Source: Antedon mediterranea
Lineage: Eukaryota > Animalia > Echinodermata
NCBI RefSeq assembly: GCF_964355755.1
Contig: NC_092673.1
Coordinates: forward strand, 10,510,848 to 10,574,847
Direction: 5' to 3'
Length of the DNA stretch: 64,000 nt
The notes beneath the pieces are model-generated. The model did not search any database. It was given only the letters and a program-made list of their open reading frames with translations, and was not told the origin of the DNA. The position numbers and the translations under genes are program-made. Below are positions 15,396 through 27,804 of the stretch, piece by piece. The first letter of the stretch is position 1. The number at the start of each line of letters is the position of its first letter.

Positions 15396-15399
15396 GTAG

Positions 15400-15697
15400 T
15401 GTTGTGAACGGCGCCCGCTGGGTAAACAGACCACCCCGCCGACCGAACGAGGGCGTCGCCCCGATAGCTTGATTTGCATACAGGGGGTATGTAAATGTTA
15501 ACGTGGGACCTCGACGCCGCCCGAGCTGGGCTATTCGAAGCAGGAACCAATGAGAAACGGACACAACCGGAATTGACCAAGATATTTGGATTTACTGCTT
15601 ACGGATACCTGTGTGATTTAGGACAAGCGGGACTGTTAAGGTAAGCCTAGTAGCTTTCATTACCAGGCCATTCCAGCACCGACCTAAAATCACAACA
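15400..15697 (+). repeat. 5' LTR
   Basis: Direct repeat of 20744-21041. Only two substitutions seen by eye (CCAATGAG/CCAAGGAG and CCTGTGTG/CCTATGTG). 8-bp terminal inverted repeat. Confidence 0.97.
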
Positions 15698-15698
15698 T

Positions 15699-15712
15699 TG
15701 GCGCTGCGAGCA
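15699..15712 (+). promoter_or_regulatory. Primer binding site, probably tRNA-Ser
   Basis: TGGCGCTGCGAGCA lies 1 nt after the LTR. Its reverse complement TGCTCGCAGCG-CCA resembles metazoan tRNA-Ser 3' ends. Confidence 0.8.
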
Positions 15713-16924
15713 AAAGCTCGGAAATCTTTTTTTTTGGTGGGGAGGCGGGTGCCTTGATTGCCAGCTGGCATTCTTAACGTGATCGGGTTGATTGCGAGGT
15801 ATTTCGTCCTCTGCTGAAACTATTAACTTATTGTACTTACGGTGCATTTGTTAGTTTATTGAAGTTGGTATATTTATTGAAGGTACAACATACCGGTAAA
15901 GTTAATCACGCAGTATTGTGGCATTTGGATACTTGCTGATTAGCGTATCGACGGGGTAGTCGATGCATACCGGGAGTTGTATTTATTTTGCTATAGTTGA
16001 AGGATTAGTGGGCAGTTTACTAGGCCGTATCACCTGGTGGGATACTAGGCGTGGCCGTTGAACTGAGTGGCACCACTAATTTTAAATTTGATTGTTTTTT
16101 ATTGATAACATCTTTTTCGTCCGTCAGTCAGGTTTTTCATCTTGAGAAATTATATTGGCTGTGCGTATTATTGTGTTAACCTCAGAGTGGCATTATCGCT
16201 CTCCTTTCTTTGCATCGGGGGAAGGTTTAGTGGTAAGTGTTGTTAAACTGTATTGACGTCTTTTTGAATAATCTAGTTGTTTCTCATTGCAGGTTTGCTG
16301 GTGAAATATTTTATTATAATGATTTGCATCTCCAACAACCATTTTGCAATATTGTGTGTGTGTTACTGCATTGACGATATTTTATTCTATTGTTGGGCCT
16401 GTAATTTTTATTACGTCTGGCGGTATTTTAATTTGTATCGTACTCTTTGCTTGATAACATCTGTTATCTCACACTGCAGCTAGTTTTACCATACTGAAGA
16501 TCGTAAAGTGTTACTACAACTTTTATTCCGTGCCAGTCTGTTTTCTTCTGGAAAGCTTGAAGACTGTTCACGTGATTTGTGACTTCAACTTCACACGCTG
16601 ATTTTCACTGCCTTTCTGTGGAGGGGAGTGGTCTGGTGATCAGTGTTCGTTGAGCATTACCAAGATCTGGATTTGAAGTATCGTCATCATTTGAATGCTG
16701 TGCAATTGGTGAATGTATCACAAATGTTTTAATAGTTTTATGCCCATTTTAATATTCCAGGCATTGGTATTGTATGGCATTTTACATTCCTAGTTTATAC
16801 ACAGTATTCATCTTAAACCGGACAATTACTAGTGGCACAACATACCTTTAGATACATTTTAATGAAAGTCTTTGACCTCTGGCAATACTTTTATACTTTT
16901 TAAGTGTATCGTATGTTTTAAAGG

Positions 16925-17938
16925 ATGCCTCATGTTGCAATAAATTTCTGGACAGAGCCAGATCTTGTCCATCTACTAGGAAAGAGAGCTAGGAAAATTA
17001 CTGATTGGAGGTCCAAATTTGGAAATATTAGAGCCTGTGACTTAGAATATTTAACTGGAATCAAGTGCTTGTCATCCAAAACGACTCGCTGGGATTTCAC
17101 ACCGAATCCTCAATTAGTGAGTAGTTGGGTTCAGAACACTAGCACTCCTCAGCTGTTCCATGCAGCACAAGTTCCATTTGGAACTTATTCCGGTGATTTA
17201 CCTGGTGGTAGTTTCTCATGGAGACACACCAGTACCAACCAACCTAGTTCTGACCACAGAGAAAAGACAGATTCAGGTTGTAGGAATACTCACTATAGGT
17301 ATGCAACCAAAGCAGAATGTCAACCAATATCTGAACTGTTAGCTTTAGACTCTAGTCTTAATGTACGGGGTCACCATTGCACTAAAGGTAGTAAAACCTC
17401 AAAAACTAGATCTGTGTCTAAGCTTTGTAGATTACTGACAGAGGATTGTTTCAGTGACTCTTCTAGTAGCTCTAGTCTTATGGACTCCAGTTCTAGTAAT
17501 GATGAGAGTTGTACAAGTGACGAAGATAGTGATCAGGATAGGGCTTATGGTAAATATTCTACGAGTGTTCAATCTAAAAGACGACACTCGCATAGGCATT
17601 CCCAACGATCACAAAAACTATTGAGACAAAAAGACATTCCCACGTCTCTAACTTTTAATGGCTGGGATGATGACTGGTATCTTTTTAAGAAACGGTTCAG
17701 ATCTTTCGCAAAGGCGCAGAACCTTACCACCGGGGATAGTAAAAATGCCCTTTTTTGGTGTATGGAGGGACCTGCGGCAAAGTTCTTAACCAATCTTTTA
17801 AGGATGGAGCCAACATTAGACTTCAAAGAGATGATGGATGTCCTCAGTGTACGTTTCGGAGACGGTGAGCGGTTTCTAAAACAAGAACTAATAACCAGCC
17901 TATCCTGGTGGGGTCAACCCTGCATTTCAACCAGCTGA
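16925..17938 (+). CDS. Gag-like protein, C-terminally truncated: N-terminal helix-hairpin-helix-like motif, Ser/acidic linker, capsid-like start
   Basis: 337-aa ORF. TFNGWDDDWYLFKKRFRSFA...ALFWCMEGPAAKF...FKEMMDVLSVRFG fits the Gypsy Gag pattern F.G...W..F...F...L...L.G.A...Y..L...L..RFG. The last ~19 codons come from the hairpin arm. Confidence 0.8.
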   Translation: MPHVAINFWTEPDLVHLLGKRARKITDWRSKFGNIRACDLEYLTGIKCLSSKTTRWDFTPNPQLVSSWVQNTSTPQLFHAAQVPFGTYSGDLPGGSFSWRHTSTNQPSSDHREKTDSGCRNTHYRYATKAECQPISELLALDSSLNVRGHHCTKGSKTSKTRSVSKLCRLLTEDCFSDSSSSSSLMDSSSSNDESCTSDEDSDQDRAYGKYSTSVQSKRRHSHRHSQRSQKLLRQKDIPTSLTFNGWDDDWYLFKKRFRSFAKAQNLTTGDSKNALFWCMEGPAAKFLTNLLRMEPTLDFKEMMDVLSVRFGDGERFLKQELITSLSWWGQPCISTS

Positions 17939-18476
17939 TTTACATGCAAATGAGCAAACTGGACAGGATATTCAAGCGTGAGACCCCTTTCACAACACAC
18001 CTCCCCATTCTAAAAGGGAAGCATTCCACCTTTCTCACACTAGCTTGAATACACCGAGGAAACTCCCTGAAATGTGGGTTCTGTACGTCTTCTTCTACAT
18101 CATCATGGTAAGTGTGAAGCTCAGGAGGCAATGTGATGTACATTTGTTGAACTCAGGTTGATCTCGGAAGTTGCTGCAGATGGTAGGTATAGTGATGCAG
18201 GAGCTGATATCTGTACATCAGTATGCCTCCTGAGCTTCACACTTACCATGATGATGTAGAAGAAGACGTACAGAACCCACATTTCAGGGAGTTTCCTCGG
18301 TGTATTCAAGCTAGTGTGAGAAAGGTGGAATGCTTCCCTTTTAGAATGGGGAGGTGTGTTGTGAAAGGGGTCTCACGCTTGAATATCCTGTCCAGTTTGC
18401 TCATTTGCATGTAAATCAGCTGGTTGAAATGCAGGGTTGACCCCACCAGGATAGGCTGGTTATTAGTTCTTGTTTT
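17878..18476. repeat. Long inverted repeat: 253-bp arms (17878-18130 and 18224-18476) with a 93-bp spacer
   Basis: Arms are reverse complements with no mismatch detected. The ORF track shows the same peptide (PPELHTYHDDVEED...SSLLICM) on both strands. Confidence 0.97.
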
Positions 18477-18482
18477 TTTCAG

Positions 18483-18741
18483 GTGCAGCAGAAATAAGAC
18501 GGTGGTTTTAAATCATGACAAGCTGGCTGATTTTAATTTACCTCCTCTTTCTTCACCTACAGATCCGGATGCAGGACCGTTGTATTGTCTATGTCGCCAG
18601 CCCTGGGCCGGCTCGTTTATGATACAATGTGACTATTGCGAGGTGTGGTACCACGGTGCATGTGTGAATATTGCACTATCTGAGGCCTGGGACATTGACT
18701 TATATCGATGTGCGGACTGCAAGTCCTCAGTTAACAATTAA
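18483..18741 (+). CDS. PHD finger preceded by a probable Gypsy integrase C-terminal remnant
   Basis: LYCLCRQP...FMIQCDYCEVWYHGACV...YRCADC is a complete C4HC3 PHD. The upstream VVLNHDKL resembles the VhHhDRLK motif at the end of Gypsy integrases. Confidence 0.88.
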
Positions 18742-18774
18742 GTACTCACGTTTACCTTCTCTTCTTCCTCAGAT

Positions 18775-20457
18775 ATGGATCAGTTACCGTTTGCTGACGG
18801 AAGTGATACGGAGATTTCCGAGATGGAGGAGGATGTGTTCTTGGCTAGTCCGGGGGTACAGGAGGAACTGACGGTGGCTGGGAATACGGGAGGGGCTTGC
18901 CCGGCGGCGAGCACCCCAGCCAAGGGGAAACCAATCTGCCATCTGATGACCCCGAAAGAAGAGGCAGCGGCTGGGGATACGAGAGGGGCTTGCCCGGTGG
19001 TGAGCACCCCAGCCGAGCGGAAACTAAAATGCCATCTGGGATGTGGTCCAGTGAGCAACATACGGGTCCACGTCACGAAGACGCATGCCCCGGCATGTTT
19101 CCGGCCACTGGAACGGAGTTCTTGGCGGAGGGCACGAGTGCAGTGGCGGGCACTCACCAGTTTGGCAGCGGAGGGCCTTGGTAAAGGCAGAACACCAGAG
19201 GACCTGAGATGTCTCCTGAACGCCCAGCACCTTATGGGGGATGGCACTGATGTCCTACCCCCGGATAGGAAAACTCGTAGTGCCATCTTTATGCTGACAC
19301 GGGTGATTGGGGGAAAGAGGCCCCCGCCTCTCACAATAGCTCCGGTTATCAGTCACCCGTCGGCTCTCATACACTGGCGCTGTGTGATCGCTCTCATCGC
19401 CTCTTTTGGTGAGGAGTTGGTGAAGGAGTGTGGTCGTCGGGCTGAGGAGGAGGAGCCGGCAGTGGACCAGATCGTCAAAAAGTCGACAAAGAGAAGGGCG
19501 GCAGAGGGAGAACATGGAGAGCGACCGACCAAGCGCGATGCCCCGGCACCGAAGGATGGTAGATCAGTGGCGGCGCCACCGATTGTGCGGGGTACATCGG
19601 CTTCGCTTGGTTCGGCACCCAAAGTGTTCGATGCTTGTTTTCACCTGGACCGGTTGCAGAGGGACCTGCAGCTTTCCAGACGAGCGGACCTCTGGGACGT
19701 GGAGCGAGCGGTGCGGGTGAGGAGTAGAACACAGCCTGTGGAAGTGGTAGGCGGGATTGCCCTGTTTGGCGATCCAACCACTTACCCCACCGAGCGGGAG
19801 ATTGGTGGACTGGCGAGGAACGGCTGTGCGGTGGGCTTGGGAGTGGCTCCTGGCTACTCGCCGACAACGGTCCAATTCGATAGGCTCCTGGCCTTAGCCC
19901 GAACTCGAGATGTTCGAGTAATCGGGAGAGTGGGATTGGACCATTCGGCCCCGCCTACAGATTGGCCGAGACAAGATCTGCTGCTAAAGAGGGTGTTGGG
20001 TCGTTGCTTGGACGGCCGCCACCACCGCATCCTGTGTCTTGAAGTCTCTGGAGTTCAAGGCGATGTCACTGGGGAGGAGTGCCACTATCGCGTCTTGGAC
20101 ATCTTGCGTCTAAGTCGTGTGTCGAAGGAACAGCGTCTGCTTCTGGCAGACTACGCTTCCACGGAAGCCGTAGCCACCGCCTACCTTCGACATTTCCCCA
20201 GGACATACTTAATTAGTGTGACCAGTCGAGTGACGGGCTTTACGGCCGATCAACGCAAGGGCCTGCGTTTCATCGCTACCAATGAAGATCGGCGATTGCT
20301 GATGGGGTCAAACGGACCGGATTATCCTCCTGCCGGATACCCAGTTGGAGCACCTCATCTGCTGTGGGCGACCGCCGTCGCCGTGGGACAGGTGCTCGAC
20401 CGGAGCCCCGGGCAGGTCACTGATCTGACATGGAAGAACGGTCGAGATCTCCTTTGA
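18775..20457 (+). CDS. 560-aa protein: acidic N-terminus, C2H2-like motif, basic linker, C-terminal TatD-like (amidohydrolase TIM-barrel) domain with substituted catalytic residues
   Basis: Intact GC-rich ORF. Motifs colinear with TatD: FDACFHLD, GLGVAP, IGRVGLD, Q..LL, YLISVT, RLLMGSNGP, P..L...A..V...L, T.KNGRDLL. CHLGC-x8-H-x4-H motif upstream. Confidence 0.85.
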   Translation: MDQLPFADGSDTEISEMEEDVFLASPGVQEELTVAGNTGGACPAASTPAKGKPICHLMTPKEEAAAGDTRGACPVVSTPAERKLKCHLGCGPVSNIRVHVTKTHAPACFRPLERSSWRRARVQWRALTSLAAEGLGKGRTPEDLRCLLNAQHLMGDGTDVLPPDRKTRSAIFMLTRVIGGKRPPPLTIAPVISHPSALIHWRCVIALIASFGEELVKECGRRAEEEEPAVDQIVKKSTKRRAAEGEHGERPTKRDAPAPKDGRSVAAPPIVRGTSASLGSAPKVFDACFHLDRLQRDLQLSRRADLWDVERAVRVRSRTQPVEVVGGIALFGDPTTYPTEREIGGLARNGCAVGLGVAPGYSPTTVQFDRLLALARTRDVRVIGRVGLDHSAPPTDWPRQDLLLKRVLGRCLDGRHHRILCLEVSGVQGDVTGEECHYRVLDILRLSRVSKEQRLLLADYASTEAVATAYLRHFPRTYLISVTSRVTGFTADQRKGLRFIATNEDRRLLMGSNGPDYPPAGYPVGAPHLLWATAVAVGQVLDRSPGQVTDLTWKNGRDLL

Positions 20458-20735
20458 GCCCCTGGCTCACCCACAACCAGAAGTTTTCAGTTTTCCAGAA
20501 GTTTTCCGTTTCAAAAGAACATGGTTCTGTTTTACATTTATTTTCATTTATATCTTTCAGGTATCTAGGGAAGCGGAGGACGGTGCTACAGGCATGTCCC
20601 ACGGCTAGTGACTACCTGAAGGGATCGTTGGAAGCGGTCTACACAGCTACGGGTATTGGGTATTTTTTCACGTACGAAAATCACCCGGTTTACCCCCGAG
20701 GTGGATCCAGGACGGGGTGCCCGCTTTTCAAACAC

Positions 20736-20743
20736 GGGAGGAG
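20736..20743 (+). promoter_or_regulatory. Polypurine tract
   Basis: GGGAGGAG immediately precedes the 3' LTR. Confidence 0.7.
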
Positions 20744-21041
20744 TGTTGTGAACGGCGCCCGCTGGGTAAACAGACCACCCCGCCGACCGAACGAGGGCGT
20801 CGCCCCGATAGCTTGATTTGCATACAGGGGGTATGTAAATGTTAACGTGGGACCTCGACGCCGCCCGAGCTGGGCTATTCGAAGCAGGAACCAAGGAGAA
20901 ACGGACACAACCGGAATTGACCAAGATATTTGGATTTACTGCTTACGGATACCTATGTGATTTAGGACAAGCGGGACTGTTAAGGTAAGCCTAGTAGCTT
21001 TCATTACCAGGCCATTCCAGCACCGACCTAAAATCACAACA
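20744..21041 (+). repeat. 3' LTR
   Basis: 298-bp direct repeat of 15400-15697, followed by TSD GTAG. Confidence 0.97.
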
Positions 21042-21720
21042 GTAGGCCTAGGCCTAGAGACCTAGTTATTTACTACTAGTACTAGGCCCTAGGCCTGGGC
21101 CTAGTAAATATTACTTATTACTAAGCCTAGCTAGAGATAGGCTCTAGCCTAGGCCTATTCCTATGAGAATTTTAGTATGTAGTACTGTACTGTGTTTGGG
21201 ATAGAAAAAACTTAATAGGGGTAATCAACCATTTGCCAGGTACACTCAAAATGTGTGCCGGCCCCCTTAATAGGCCTATATCCACTTGTTTATGGGAAAG
21301 GGTGTCCCAAAGAAGAGATCAAACATACACATTTTCAATAATATTTTACCATGTGTGGCATATAATTAATTATTTAAAATAACGATAGTGAGGCATTTGA
21401 TGAATAGGCGTCACGCTTGCCATATGATTGTTTGTTGCCTACATTCCTTGTTGTTTTATCATGCTAATTACTTCCTCATTTACATACAACCTGTCCTATT
21501 GGTATATAAGTACTCTAAGCCTAGGCGTTGTTTTCTGTTCTGGTGGAAGATGAGAATAGTTTCTCAAAACATATCAATTTTTAGGCAGTTTGCCTATTCA
21601 TATGCTTCACTATCATTATTTTAACTCAAAATTTCGGTGGAATCATTCTTGATTTAATATCTAATTAATTATGTATGATAATAATTTAATCAAATTGCAA
21701 ATTTTCTGATTACTATACAG

Positions 21721-24700
21721 AATCTGTTTGTCAAGTAACATCAACACACAGCACTGCTTATCCAACTGAGCGTATGCTTTACTATTCTTCAAGTGAAGAT
21801 GATGAAGTAGGCCTAATTGTACGTGGGAACGGTTCAATTCAATCAATCAATAATGGATGTTCTGCTGTTGATGATACAGAAGGGTCACCTACTGGGATTT
21901 CGACTACCGAAGTTCCTCCAGCAGCAAAGAGAAAAGCATGGGAGGTTTCTACAACAGATGTCGATACTTCTGATGATGACATACCTACAGAGTCAGCAGG
22001 TCAGTAACTTTAACAATACAATGACATGTTATGTAGTTATTTACTAGGTTAGAGTAGAGGCCGCCTCTAGGCCTATCCCTATGTTTTTATGGGCCCGATC
22101 TGGGAGGTAACAATATCGTATTCGATTGGGACATTTATCGTTGAGTATAGTTTTGTTTTTGTTGATTTACCTTTCCGTACTTATAACACAATTGTGTGCG
22201 TTGAGATTGTTCTTAACAAAGAAGTTTGCATTGTTAACGTTTTCTATTTCACTGGACCACCTCTAGTTACGTTCAGTATAACCCCTATTAAGGCTTCAGG
22301 AACAAAATAATGTCCCCTTGGCAGGGGTTTTTTACTGGAAAAAAAAAATTATTTTGATATGTAAAATAAATAATTGATCTGGAATCATAAAATTAAAAAT
22401 TGAAATTAGCAGTCCCTTTTAAACAATAAATGTATCTAATTATTTCTATGATAATAGTTTAAATTGCACATTTTCTGATTACAACATAGACTCTGTTTGT
22501 CTAGTAACAACTACCAAAGTTCCTCCAGCAGCAGAGAGAAAAGCATGGGAGGTTTCTACAACAGATGTCGATACTTCCGATGTCGATACTTCCGATGATG
22601 ACATATCAGCAGGTCAGTAGCAATAACATTAACCATGAGCTTTTGCTAACCTTTCTTAGTAGGGCTCCTACCAACTTTATACAAAACTTCATCTAGGCTT
22701 GGGTAGGGAATTACCTTTTAAGCAGCCAGCCTAATAATACTACTACTACTACTACTACTAGCCAGTAGATATTAGTATCCTCTATAGAGGCTAGTTTATT
22801 TATTTAGATTTACTTCCCTACTACACCTTTAAATCATTAGCATACTTAATAATTACAAAGGTGCATTCTTCAGAAATAACAAAATACAACAAAAACCTCA
22901 TTATTAATAACGATGAGAATAATGGTGAAAAAAAAGGATAAATGGTAATAACCTCCCATAAAGCCTATAGCTCCTCGATCAAAATATTATCTTCCACTAT
23001 CCAAAATTTGAAAATGTCTGCTATCAATCACCAGTTACCCCAAATGAAGAATTACTGTACATGTATGTTGCATAGGCTGCTATAAATATTAAACTACTAT
23101 ATTTTTATTTAGCCTGCAAGGAGGCCTAGAGACTGTAGAAACTAATTACCTTAATTCATCTGGATCAAGTGATGATGAGATTAAAATCTCTAATCACACA
23201 AGTAAGCGTAGTGGTAAGTTTGATATGTCATTAATTTTTAAAACTACTTTTATTAAATAGTGCTTGATGTTGATGGTTGTGCTGTACCTAAAAGATATGG
23301 AAATTGCTGGTTGTTTCCATTTGTGTCTGATTCTATGGTCAGGTTCTAATGTTATGTCTGTATGGTATGTAAATAGGTACGACTGTCCAATGAACAAGGC
23401 ACCTGCACAACCTGTAATTGAACACTCGAAAAGTGAAATTGAATTATCTGAACCGAAAAAAAAATTGTTTGTCAAAGAATTAAAAGTATCTATATATTAA
23501 TGCGAATTAGTCACCTAGTTTTACGTAACCTCCAAAACTTCTGAAACCGTATTGACTGATCACATTTTCTGCAATTGGTACCATATAATTGTTATTTTGT
23601 TTGTTTGTTTTTTTTGCCAATGGATAATGTAAGTTTATTCTTTCTGTAGAAAAAAGGAAAAGGAATCACCTACAGCCAATACACAACTTGTATTTGACCT
23701 GCTGTTGTGCATTAATGTGCATTGGTATGCTAAATTTTAGAGAAATAAAACAAACAAGGAAAGCTTTTCAAGCAATGACCGAATATGAACAACGCTGTTG
23801 GATCCTTAAATATTTCAATGAACATCTCAGCACATCCGGAGGTGCCACCAAAATCGGTCTACTAGTTGGTGCTAACAAAGTTTGTGCAAAAGCATGGATG
23901 TTAGTAAATGGTATTGGCCGGTCAACTTTTTACAAAATAAGGAAGCAAGCTATTGGTAATTAATTGTTTAGTTTTACAGTACATTTTACATTATTTAATT
24001 TTACATGCTGTTAATATTACTTTTAATGTATGTGTTTTAATGTTGCTGAAACGGAAAGATTACTGTGACTGTGTGAAGATTACTTTCCATTATACTTATA
24101 GTCGTATTATACAGGGCCATAGCCAGGATCTGACGAGGAGTGGAGAATAACTTTTTTTTAAATGAATAGAATGCATTTGATTATTGTTTAATTATTTTTA
24201 CACAATAAAATCAATATGCTTAACACTATGTTAGAAAGATAATGCAAAATGATCATAAGTCATTAATCAATGGATTAAACCAAACAATAATAAAATAGTA
24301 CAGTATTTGAAATTCCTAATATTTGAAATTTACATTTTATTTCTTTTCAGAAGGATGCTGTTATCTTTTACCACCCAACTTCACCAGAAAGATGGTATAT
24401 AGCAATTCAACTCAACAGTGTCGGGCTTGGTTTATTAAATTTTGTAATGAATACGGTGATCAAATGCCAACTAATGGACAAATCCATCTACCATCAACGC
24501 TTACCAAACATGATGTGTACATGCATATGAAAGATGAGTTTGAGCTAAGAAATGAAGATGTGTGTGCATTAGCGACATTCTACAAGTTTTGGTGTGTTGA
24601 ATTCAAGCATATTGTAATACCCGAGGTATGTTTACGTTTTTACACTTATTATCGTTTGTACCAACAAATACCATTCACTTCAATGGACAAAATCCATGTC

Positions 24701-27700
24701 ATCTTCATTGACTGAAGTATTTTTTAACGTATTTTTATAAATTCACTTCAATGTTATGCAGAAAGTCCTGTAGGTTCAATTTTCATTCATAATAAAATAC
24801 TGGAAAAACATACTGTACAATCCAGATGCATGTATGATGGGCCTCACAACTCCTTCCATACATTCACTATATTGAATGCAAAATTTGTTTAATTTTATAT
24901 TTTTACGTGCTGTATTTTTTCAATTTTTTTTAATAGGAAAATCGTTTTGCAAAATGCAGCAAATGCACCAGAATTAAATTTGAGCTGCACAAGACAAATC
25001 AAAAGCAAAAACGGCAAATACTAATGATGAAGAGAGAGAAACATTTACGAAAACAAAAGTAAGTATGCCTACCTATTTTGTGTACAAAACCAGTAGGTTA
25101 AACCTTTCAACAAGAAATTCTGTTGAACTTGTATACCCGGTATTACCATAGATAGGAAAAATAATTATTGCTTCCACTGTATACCTCCTCTATAGTATTA
25201 TTAGTGTTTTTAAAAATAATTCTAACTTAATAAAATTAAGAGTGATTGAAATAAAACAGAAAATAACTGGGGAAAAATGGTAGAAAATGAAAATAATTAT
25301 TGTGTATGAACAATGAATGAATAAAAGTGGTTGTAAACAAAAAAAGAGAAAAGATAAACAAAATCATTATTATACAAAAAACCTTTACATTTAATCAATA
25401 ATTGTAATAGATTAGAAGTAAAGCATTGTCTCATCTTGTCATCGGCTAATAGATAACATATAACTAAACAAAACAAAAATTTATTATTAAATGCAAAATA
25501 AAACTATAAACATATGATTTGAATTTTTCAGTATTGAACGTCAAAAGTACTATAAACATATGCAGAAAGCAAGACAGAATCCCACCAAGTATTTGTCAAT
25601 AATTATCGATGGAATGGACCAAAGCAAGACTGATTTACCATCTTTTGCTTGCGAATCAAAAGAAACGTCGAAGATGTGGAAACTAGCCACACATGTAACT
25701 GGTGTTCTGGTACATGGGCGACATGGGCACTGCTTCATTGACCTAAAGCAGTTTCCACATGACTCAAACCTAACCTGCAACATTATACTGAAGGTGCTGT
25801 CAGAGATACAACCTCTACCACCAGTCTTATATCTGCAGTTGGACAATAGCGGAAAGGATAATAAAAACAGATTTGTTTTTGCCCTATGTGCTCTTCTTGT
25901 AGAGTTAAAGATTTTTCGAAAGGTAAATGACTATAAATTTATAAATGATATATAAATAATAAAACAGTATACACAGTGCACTTTAAAGAACCCAGTTCAT
26001 CATTCATTTACCCTGTTCTTGTTCACCACAAAATATCCCCTGTGTTGGGTGATTTCCACCTGCCTAATAGGACAGTAAATAATTTACTATTGGTAATTAT
26101 CTAAAGACATAAAATATTCAATAACATTCTAGTCTAACTAGATGAGGAAAAAATGGAAATATACTAAAAATGTATTTTTTTTATGTTGCTTTGAAAAGTT
26201 TTAATTTTAAATCATTACTTCTTTTACTCTTTCAGATAAAGATTGGGTTTTTAATGGTGGGTCACACTCACGAGGATATTGACCAATTATTTTCATGTGT
26301 GGCCAAATACCTGAACAAATATAGAGCATCTACACTTGATCATCTTCGAAGTGCTGTTGAAAACTCGTACAAAAAGTTGCCGATTACATCAAGTATCATT
26401 TCCTATCTGCATGACATTAAGAACTGGTTAGTACCATACATGCAAGACATACGTTACCACAGCAAACCACACCAGTTTAAGTTTGTTTTGGCTCAAACCG
26501 GAAAATGCATCATGTCCTATAAGAACTGGTCAACGGATTGTACTTGGTGTGAATGTGCAAGAGAAATGGACACACTTCCATATTTGCTCAAGGAAAGCCC
26601 TGCTGATATACCAGTGTTGTGTACTCCTGATTTTAGTAATGCAGATATACCAAAGTTAAAAAAAAGTCTGGCGTCTGTTGCAAATTTTTTGCGAATAGAA
26701 GAACGTGACTGGTGGGAGGAATTTTTAAATAATATAGAAGACATCACAGAAGGTATGTACTGTACTACATTGCATGTGTGTTGTTTCACCATTTTACACA
26801 TATATTTTTTGGTTAACAAGAGAATTTTGATTTTAGTATAGATTCAGCAGCTATAACAAAATTCAAAATACTCCACACAACTATGTTGGGTCACATTCAC
26901 CAATGCATGCTTCCACTGATCATTTTATGTGAGAACCTAAAATTATCAAATAACATGAACGATATCTAGTGGAGTACACTGGAGAAACATGCCTCCTGAT
27001 TAATTCATAAGATAAAATCAATCAATCAGCATCTGATTAGCATGGTGCGCAATGTATTGGCCCAGCTTTTATGCAACAAACACCTCGGCATAAATATATC
27101 ATGAATGTATATTATTTACTTTTTAAAACTAATACGTACTCTTTTTTTTTAAGGAAATGAACAGCGATTTTTGCTCCATGACATCATTTTTAATGACAAC
27201 AATGCAAGCCCTATCAGGGAGGAATCTGATGGAAACGAGACAGACATTAGTGACTCAGATAATGAAAATGAAATAAGACCGGTATGATAAAGATATTATA
27301 GATTTTCAAAATTACATCTTTGAAACATGTAATGCAACTTAGTTTAAAGCAGTGCTTATATTTGGAATATGATCTCATAATCGCATCAAGCAAATGCATC
27401 AACGAAAATTCTATATTTTTAGGGTTGTAAGAAAAATGATTATGACTTTTCTATGCTTTCTCCCACACTACAAGGTACACATTGGTAAATTTTCGAAGCG
27501 TAAGCCACCACAGCAACTCGATGTTGGTGCTATGGTAGCAACAGCTTTAAGGAGATATCCCACAGAATGGCCTCAGATAGGCAAAATATTCAGCATAAAT
27601 AACAATGAGGTAGAAGTAGTGTGGTACACTGGAACGTATACTTCCCGGTTTGTTCTGTGTGAAAAAGATGGACAAGAATGGCGAGAAATAATATCGAAGG

Positions 27701-27804
27701 AGGAGGTGATAAGTATATTTAATTTAACACCAACTAGTAGATTGCCTACCAATGTTATTGTTAAATTAAAAGAATTAAGAGATGACTTTTTAAATGAAAG
27801 TTAA
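21721..27804 (+). CDS. Multi-exon Sola-like/DUF7869-type DDD transposase-like protein. Exons: 21721-21999, 22490-22612, ~23121 or 23130-23213, 23650-23955, 24351-24625, 24937-25058, 25532-25922, 26236-26752, 27154-27281, 27475-27804
   Basis: GT-AG introns with compatible phases give an open ~850-aa frame. Motifs: CC...C and C..AW....GI...TFY; F.KC..C...H; SIIIDGMDQSK; LYLQLDNSGKDNKN; FLMVGHTHEDIDQLFS. C-terminal VGAMVA...PQIGKI...VEVVWY is a Tudor/SH3-like barrel. Confidence 0.85.

What the first reader, a model, noticed from the sequence alone, without database searches (positions are those of the whole stretch)
15400..21041. Young pol-less LTR retrotransposon retaining a four-part accessory cargo (HhH-Gag, long hairpin, PHD finger, inactive TatD)
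Seen: all cis signals are intact (298-bp LTRs differing at about two positions, TSD, PBS, PPT), but there is no protease, RT, RNase H or integrase core. What remains is an HhH-Gag, a 253-bp stem hairpin, a complete PHD finger and an uninterrupted 560-aa TatD-fold ORF. Known: canonical Gypsy elements carry gag-pol with or without env. Inference: this is a deletion derivative of a Gypsy lineage whose extra 3' ORF is a nuclease-fold protein and whose integrase ends in a histone reader. It may be mobilised in trans or deleted after insertion. Chromatin reader, pseudo-nuclease and dsRNA module together in one mobile unit make it the best candidate here for an undescribed system.
Basis: partly seen in the sequence, partly recalled or inferred. 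Interest (0 to 1): 0.85.

Follow-up and report, generated by a model that had tools for sequence, protein, structure and literature searches.

The report
Pol-less Gypsy element keeps dead-nuclease gene
This is a young, crippled copy of a jumping gene, likely from a feather star, whose large but little-described lineage carries a nuclease-like extra gene and a histone-reader finger; here the nuclease has lost its working residues, the finger is a stranded remnant and the hairpin is likely a one-off copying accident, so the four parts are not one system.

Summary
The anatomy is real, but it is not one four-part system. LTRs (296/298 identical), 4-bp TSD, PBS, PPT, a 253-bp perfect stem, a PHD finger and a 560-aa TatD-fold ORF are present, and pol is absent. 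The common form in two independent runs has no hairpin: gag runs on, and about 1.67 kb lies where this copy has an inverted duplication flanked by microhomology. That common form (about 7.1 kb) is still too short for pol, so a pol-less family exists. The PHD is the stranded C-terminus of integrase. Complete relatives (L029, L008) read gag, PR-RT-RH-IN-PHD, ORF3-TatD. ORF3 belongs to a large family (230 representatives at E<=1e-30), with the six catalytic sites intact in 103 of 122. Here 5 of 6 are lost while the N-terminal C/H domain and most fold residues are kept, and a near-identical Antedon RefSeq protein shares the 4 losses it covers. Ten paper searches found no TatD-Gypsy description; Repbase and Dfam could not be searched. 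This scan noted TatD-ORF3 and IN-PHD Gypsy elements before on other genomes. Verdict: new variant of a known kind, moderate interest.

The parts
15396..15399 (+). Target-site duplication, left copy (GTAG)
   Evidence: empty-site contig end in X1
15400..15697 (+). 5' LTR, 298 bp; holds a canonical splice-donor-like site (GT at 15641)
   Evidence: a GTAAG donor-like site also lies in the LTR of relative L029; use of the site is inferred
15699..15716 (+). Primer-binding site (tRNA 3'-end complement; tRNA-Ser is recalled, not tested)
15698..16924 (+). 1.2-kb leader; other related elements share it up to about 16463 and then diverge
   Evidence: loose ends at 16463-16464 in X1, X6, X10
16925..17938 (+). 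Truncated gag: native sequence to 17888, then a stop inside the left hairpin arm; weak N-terminal HhH-like region; C-terminal capsid part and zinc knuckle missing
   Evidence: family contigs continue gag past 17888
17878..18142 (-). Left hairpin arm: inverted duplication of 18212-18476 that replaces about 1.67 kb of the family form; 11-bp microhomology at 17878-17888 and 13/16 match at 18127-18142
18143..18211 (+). Hairpin loop; ordinary family sequence
   Evidence: X2 record 22 and X1 record 1 run through it
18212..18476 (+). Right arm = original family sequence in place of pol; includes a PPT-like tract and what is likely the first ~100 bp (18357-18462) of a second Gypsy family's LTR
   Evidence: (D14); X6 and X10 contigs start exactly at 18357 or its mirror with another flank
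18458..18741 (+). Stranded integrase C-terminal tail with PHD finger (about 18586-18720); two small deletions against family contigs near 18489-18525
18755..18772 (+). Splice-acceptor-like site (pyrimidine tract + CAG) 2 nt before the ORF3 ATG
   Evidence: similar site 1-10 nt before the ORF3 ATG in 3 of 3 relatives checked
18775..20457 (+). ORF3, 560 aa: conserved C-x3-C / H-x4-H and L-x-H-W N-domain plus TatD barrel lacking 5 of 6 metal/catalytic residues
20736..20743 (+). Polypurine tract
20744..21041 (+). 3' LTR, 298 bp
21042..21045 (+). Target-site duplication, right copy (GTAG)

Best explanation
This is a recently inserted copy of a pol-less Gypsy LTR derivative, likely moved by the enzymes of an autonomous partner, from a widespread lineage whose integrase ends in a PHD finger and whose third ORF is a TatD-fold protein; its hairpin is likely a later, private inversion-duplication. 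Step 1 (layout shown in relatives): the parent reads gag, PR-RT-RH-IN-PHD, ORF3. Step 2 (result shown, mechanism inferred): pol was replaced by non-coding sequence including a PPT/LTR piece of a second Gypsy family, leaving a ~7.1-kb gag + integrase-tail + ORF3 form that likely spreads in trans. Step 3 (junctions shown, timing inferred): in this copy or its immediate parent a microhomology template switch deleted ~1.67 kb, cut gag and duplicated 253-265 bp in reverse. ORF3 is likely made from a spliced RNA (LTR donor to the acceptor at 18772), which would remove the hairpin and the PHD remnant as intron. Its product is predicted to be a folded, zinc-binding pseudo-nuclease that binds rather than cuts nucleic acid; that function is untested.
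For: Family form lacks the hairpin: X1 record 7 and X2 record 22 follow gag to 17888 and leave; X2 record 22 (2627 nt) rejoins at 18127 with ~1666 letters between. X2 depth in bin 17848-17945 (69.2) equals the sum expected from the gag contig and the arm contig alone (69.18), leaving nothing for a junction contig. Microhomology at both junctions. Both arms carry the same window-specific letter (18057/18297), so the duplication was copied in cis. Loose ends at 18458 in X1, X6 and X10 read as an integrase GPY/F-type motif, and X10 record 9 has 1530 other letters upstream. 5 of 44 motif-scan loci are ORF3 relatives; L029 is a complete element and L008 has the same order; the window's tail aligns with their IN-PHD at 40-52%. 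Acceptor-like site before the ORF3 ATG in 4 of 4. Catalytic sites intact in 103 of 122 full-coverage sequences, 5 of 6 changed here. Non-catalytic conserved positions kept 33 of 49 versus 1 of 6 catalytic (Fisher p 0.026 at the 80% threshold); N-domain 10 of 10 kept. 13 of 23 listed ORF3 differences are synonymous versus ~30% expected (p 0.008).
Against: Contigs show presence, not absence. The window copy differs ~1% from X1/X2 contigs and an empty site is seen in X1, so those individuals may simply lack this sub-lineage, and more hairpin copies could exist in the window's own genome, which is not held. Only 4 of 12 listed runs were laid. The ~1.67 kb was not read; its length comes from one contig (X2 record 22). 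No intact autonomous partner was seen in organism A, only an 85-letter integrase-like end. Perfect arms do not date the hairpin after insertion (P about 0.18 at LTR divergence). The synonymous test uses 23 listed sites out of some 289 rows, chosen by the tool for support. The fold-retention test is not significant at the 90% threshold (18 of 28 kept, p 0.066). The RefSeq near-twins P0005 and P0030 are partial and P0030 diverges in frame at its end, so some copies of ORF3 are decaying. The structure model is poor (mean pLDDT 38). No transcript evidence was obtained.
Confidence: 0.8

Rival explanations
1. One reading: HhH-Gag, hairpin, PHD and pseudo-TatD are a co-selected four-part cargo that moves as one unit.
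For: All four are present between nearly identical LTRs; perfect arms are compatible with formation before insertion.
Against: The family form has no hairpin; the hairpin event truncates Gag; the PHD is an integrase tail with no start codon ahead of it and small deletions private to this copy.
Confidence: 0.05
2. The hairpin arose during reverse transcription of an earlier copy and marks a small mobile sub-family that yields dsRNA against its sibling elements and a second Gypsy family.
For: The window's LTRs share several differences from X1/X2 contigs, so it descends from a slightly diverged master; the arms include a likely PPT/LTR piece of another family; the stem is predicted to be very stable (-541 kcal/mol).
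Against: No contig spanning the gag-to-arm junction is listed in the 4 runs laid, and X2 depth leaves no room for one. A 253-bp stem would likely hinder reverse transcription (general knowledge).
Confidence: 0.12
3. ORF3 is simply decaying after loss of function, and its open frame reflects the youth of the family.
For: RefSeq near-twins are partial; non-catalytic conserved TatD positions are also partly lost, 16 of 49; ORF3 here is shorter than L029, L035 and L008 ORF3s.
Against: About 48% divergence from the nearest intact relative P0028 with no stop in 560 codons; N-domain motif 10 of 10 kept; synonymous excess; catalytic loss in about 10 separate places on the tree.
Confidence: 0.2
4. The hairpin is a fold-back artefact of sequencing or assembly.
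For: Arms are 253/253 identical; no junction contig is listed.
Against: Two microhomology junctions plus loss of ~1.67 kb fit a polymerase template switch better than a simple fold-back (inference).
Confidence: 0.07

Closest known systems
Juno and Vesta LTR retrotransposons of bdelloid rotifers with DEDDy 3'-5' exonuclease or GDSL ORF3 (Rodriguez et al. 2017, PMC5408684; passages read)
   Same: A non-env third ORF in the env position encoding a nuclease-type enzyme; the paper says ORF3s are typically expressed from spliced messages and compares them with inactive nucleases Maelstrom and EXD1.
   Different: Different fold (TatD barrel plus a C/H N-domain, not DEDDy); 'TatD' does not occur in that paper; rotifer ORF3 catalytic residues are intact, here 5 of 6 are lost; integrase here ends in a PHD.
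TelKA2n, non-autonomous rotifer LTR family (same paper)
   Same: [quoted passage not shown]
   Different: Its ORF3 is env-like; no hairpin is mentioned (0 hits for the word).
TR-GAG non-autonomous LTR retrotransposons of plants (PMC8704663; passages read)
   Same: LTRs plus gag without pol, shown there to transpose with a helper.
   Different: TR-GAGs have a single gag ORF; this family keeps ORF3 and an integrase tail, and gag is truncated in this copy.
Chromoviruses; CopiaMBD (PMC6673714, passages); Ginger1 transposase with PHD (PMC2836005, passages)
   Same: A chromatin-reader domain attached to an integrase-type protein, proposed to steer integration.
Cellular TatD nucleases, group II HxH type: TATDN2/3, YcfH, YjjV (PMC10085689; passages read)
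   Same: Fold (Foldseek top 8 hits all TatD proteins, best E 5e-6; profile E 1e-26); most relatives keep H-x-H, E, H, H, D.
   Different: Encoded by a retrotransposon, fused to an N-domain with no Pfam match, and in this family missing 5 of 6 of these residues.

Membership tests
Ty3/Gypsy LTR retrotransposon (lineage) | LTRs with TG...CA, PBS, PPT, short TSD | tested here: met
Ty3/Gypsy LTR retrotransposon (lineage) | Order PR-RT-RH-IN with Ty3-type RT and GPY/F integrase tail | tested here: met
   Met in relatives L029 and L008 (RT best hits Ty3, E 8e-42); the window keeps only the homologous tail
Autonomous Gypsy element | Intact gag and pol | tested here: not met
   No pol domains; gag truncated
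Non-autonomous LTR family (TelKA2n / TR-GAG-like) | Same pol-less internal structure in independent individuals | tested here: met
   For the ~7.1-kb form without hairpin: X1 and X2, two studies, share the exit at 17888 and entry at 18127
Non-autonomous LTR family (TelKA2n / TR-GAG-like) | Several insertions with different TSDs and an identified helper | tested here: inconclusive
   Several LTR flanks (4 contigs in X1, 2 in X2) and an integrase-like end exist, but contigs do not link them to this form
TR-GAG | Single ORF encoding full Gag | tested here: not met
   Extra ORF3; gag truncated in this copy
Active TatD nuclease | TatD barrel fold | tested here: met
   (low-confidence model)
Active TatD nuclease | Metal ligands H-x-H, E, H, H, D | tested here: not met
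   5 of 6 changed; also changed at the 4 sites covered by P0005
Active TatD nuclease | Exonuclease / AP-endonuclease activity | not testable with these tools
   needs assay
H3K4me3-reader PHD finger | C4-H-C3 ligands and Y/M/W cage as in PHF8/PHF2/BPTF | tested here: met
   by sequence; the role of these residues as a methyl-lysine cage is recalled, binding untested
Chromovirus | Chromodomain at integrase C-terminus | tested here: not met
   PHD instead; no chromodomain hit in L029, L008, L035
HhH-bearing Gag | N-terminal helix-hairpin-helix | tested here: inconclusive
   Pfam HHH_3 in L029 (E 2e-6), none in the window; 27% over 59 aa between them; model unusable
Named Repbase/Dfam family | Match to a deposited consensus | not testable with these tools
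   Repbase and Dfam are not held

The most novel reading that the evidence does not exclude
A large animal Gypsy lineage uses a spliced, env-position TatD protein as an accessory factor, and has repeatedly turned it into a selected pseudo-nuclease. Pol-less parasites such as this family keep it because it benefits the RNA or locus that encodes it, for example by shielding it from host silencing or decay. Many RefSeq 'YcfH-like' and uncharacterised genes of echinoderms and bivalves would then be this transposon gene.
Probability: 0.3. Interest if true: 0.72.

Novelty: new variant of a known kind. Interest (0 to 1): 0.45.

Why it matters
The copy itself is a broken derivative, and the hairpin is probably a local accident. 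The lineage is what matters. Gypsy elements with a PHD-tipped integrase and a TatD ORF3 form a large family that I did not find described in ten literature searches, and named members are annotated as host genes in crinoids, a starfish, scallops and a symbiont bin. Naturally active-type and pseudo-type ORF3s exist side by side, so what non-env ORF3 proteins do for LTR elements becomes directly testable. The locus also shows how a single template switch can turn a transposon copy into a potential long-dsRNA source.

Tried and rejected
No whole genome is held, so copies could not be collected directly. Word-indexed protein searches gave 1 relative for ORF3 twice and one unrelated PHD protein; the full HMMER search showed these blanks were a sensitivity limit. 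The search for related loci found nothing in viral contigs or metagenome contigs. Two motif scans of viral contigs gave 5 loci, 0 of 5 related. 39 of 44 metagenome motif loci were unrelated. Atlas: only sub-0.9 TatD leads for ORF3; the Gag query did not complete. PDB sequence search: ORF3 alone 0 hits, Gag no significant hit. The Gag model was unusable (pLDDT 37) and was not fold-searched. Rfam gave one miRNA-family match far below its gathering score, explained by the stem. No RNA holder listed; X2's RNA label is a guess and it covers flanks, so it was treated as DNA. Rejected: hairpin as an inserted MITE (one arm is ordinary family sequence, the other replaces a deletion); a spliced PHD exon at 18482 (the tract is part of the integrase reading frame in relatives); arm as degenerate integrase or RT (no similarity to L029/L008). 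Contig depth was not used as a copy number. Supplements of the papers were not read; they, Repbase and Dfam may name this lineage.
Full report
Observation. The element spans 15400-21041. Its LTRs are 298 bp and differ at two positions, with a GTAG target-site duplication, a PBS and a PPT. A 253/253 stem joins 17878-18130 and 18224-18476. Pfam finds a PHD finger (E 1.6e-9) and TatD (E 1.8e-8) and no pol domain in 9 frames scanned. The HhH label on Gag is weak: no Pfam hit, and 27% identity over 59 residues to the HHH_3 domain of a relative. No genome is held for the window, so copies were studied through public run contigs.

The hairpin. Twelve runs hold parts of the element; I laid 4 of them in two halves. 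In X1 and X2 (organism A, two studies) the main contig follows gag to 17888 and then leaves. X2 record 22 (2627 nt) returns at 18127, with about 1666 letters between; X1 also has a loose end before 18127. The arm sequence is covered in these runs by one contig that belongs to the right arm. X2 depth across the left junction (69.2) equals what those two contigs alone give (69.18). Both junctions show microhomology: 11 of 11 at 17878-17888 and 13 of 16 at 18127-18142. Both arms share a letter that differs from the family (18057/18297). I infer a template switch in cis that deleted about 1.67 kb, truncated Gag and duplicated the arm in reverse. Limits: contigs drop rare variants, the window copy is about 1% from these contigs, and X1 shows an empty site, so other hairpin copies in the window's own genome are not excluded. 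Perfect arms do not date the event (P about 0.18).

The pol-less family. The common form is about 7.07 kb. From gag start to PHD stop it has about 3.3 kb, against 5.8 kb in complete relative L029, so it cannot hold a full pol. The length rests on one contig and the 1.67 kb was not read. The sequence in place of pol includes a PPT-like tract and an LTR-like start at 18357; contigs of X6 and X10 begin exactly there or at its mirror position with a different flank. I infer a captured piece of a second Gypsy family. This architecture, gag 5' part plus ORF3 without pol, is known from the rotifer family TelKA2n (PMC5408684, passages), and helper-driven movement of gag-only elements is shown for plant TR-GAGs (PMC8704663, passages).

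The PHD. Loose ends at 18458 in X1, X6 and X10 read as an integrase GPY/F-type motif, and an X10 contig carries 1530 further letters upstream. A motif scan of metagenome contigs gave 44 loci, 5 of them relatives. L029 is a complete, circularly collapsed element: HHH_3-gag-CCHC, PR, RT, RH, IN-PHD, ORF3-TatD. L008 has the same order with frame breaks, and L035 has IN tail, PHD, ORF3. The RT is Ty3-like. The window's tail aligns to these at 40-52% and resembles PHF8/PHF2/BPTF fingers. In this copy it has small private deletions and no Met ahead of the finger, so it is a remnant. Reader domains on integrase-type proteins are known: chromoviruses and CopiaMBD (PMC6673714, passages), Ginger1 with PHD (PMC2836005, passages).

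ORF3. A HMMER search of 1.84 billion representatives gave 230 hits at E<=1e-30 and 865 at <=1e-10, some of which may be cellular TatD; I examined the best 150. Of 156 aligned sequences, 122 cover all six metal/catalytic sites and 103 are intact; the window has 5 of 6 changed (site roles from PMC10085689, passages). Near-identical RefSeq proteins come from the crinoid Antedon mediterranea: P0005 at 97.6%, sharing the 4 changes it covers, and P0030 at 90%. The next relatives are from Anneissia japonica, P0028 being intact at the 4 sites it covers. The window is therefore likely an Antedon genome (inference; for lineage). Of 20 clusters looked up, named ones are crinoid, starfish and scallop genes called uncharacterised or YcfH-like, a symbiont-bin TatD and a JGI TatD label; I did not see their DNA context. 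On a FastTree of 143 domains (13 short ones left out), 15 tips with 2 or more changed sites fall in 10 separate groups, some possibly misaligned. The window keeps 10 of 10 highly conserved N-domain positions and 33 of 49 non-catalytic TatD positions against 1 of 6 catalytic (p 0.026; 18 of 28 and p 0.066 at the stricter threshold). Thirteen of 23 listed differences are synonymous against about 30% expected (p 0.008; a tool-selected subset). A low-confidence model still matches TatD structures first. An acceptor-like site lies 1-10 nt before the ORF3 ATG in 4 of 4 elements, and a donor-like site is in the LTR of the window and of L029. Splicing is inferred; it would drop the hairpin and PHD remnant from the ORF3 message. 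Against: P0005 and P0030 are partial, so some copies decay, and an X1 contig joins 18798 to 20569 with unknown sequence between, which may be a form lacking or diverged in ORF3.

Prior knowledge. Ten searches found no paper describing TatD in a Gypsy element: TatD + LTR retrotransposon + Gypsy gave 0, and the 21 and 3 listings for looser terms were unrelated by title and abstract start (one checked, a host TATDN2 label). 'TatD' is absent from the main text of PMC5408684, PMC6431247 and PMC13524379; of PMC6338049 I read part 1 of 4 only. Most subscription papers, Repbase and Dfam were not searchable. This scan's own notes report a TatD-ORF3 Gypsy clade in sea urchin, TatD-fold ORF3s lacking catalytic residues in a flatworm, and IN-PHD elements in sea urchin; I had reached the same reading beforehand and tested the layout independently on L029, L008 and L035.

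Verdict. Three of the four parts are a truncation, an accident and a remnant. What stands is a pol-less family of a little-described Gypsy lineage that keeps an env-position TatD pseudo-nuclease. New variant of a known kind; interest 0.45.

Noticed in passing
window 18343-18462: PPT-like tract followed by an LTR-like start at 18357 that resembles this element's own PPT/LTR boundary; other runs have contigs starting exactly there, so likely a piece of a second Gypsy family embedded where pol was.
   Followed up: partly
window 15700-16463 and 18446-20460: In X1 and X6 contig depth over the leader and ORF3 is several times that over gag, and contigs leave the leader at about 16463; further derivatives lacking gag but keeping ORF3 may exist. 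Depth is not a copy number.
   Followed up: no
window 18798-20569 (X1 joint): A deep X1 contig links 18798 to 20569 with unknown sequence between: a sister family with a diverged or missing ORF3.
   Followed up: no
L044 145-2975: Gag zinc knuckle and partial protease lie directly before a frame-broken ORF3 with intact TatD sites: a second, independent pol-less derivative of this lineage, or a misassembly.
   Followed up: partly
window 24320-27801: Exon-like ORFs with strong DUF7869 hits (E 8e-33 and 3e-36), likely a DNA-transposon transposase; the Gypsy copy sits in a repeat related to 21650-22630.
   Followed up: partly
window 28941-64000: 35-kb satellite of a 19-bp unit, about 1790 copies, filling more than half of the window.
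   Followed up: no
P0006 cluster: ORF3 relatives deposited as TatD hydrolase of Candidatus Thiodiazotropha symbiont bins on 2-4 kb contigs; likely host retrotransposon contamination (inference).
   Followed up: no
ORF3 residues about 86-202: A conserved C-x3-C, H-x4-H, L-x-H-W domain with no Pfam match precedes TatD across the family; possibly an undescribed zinc-binding domain.
   Followed up: partly
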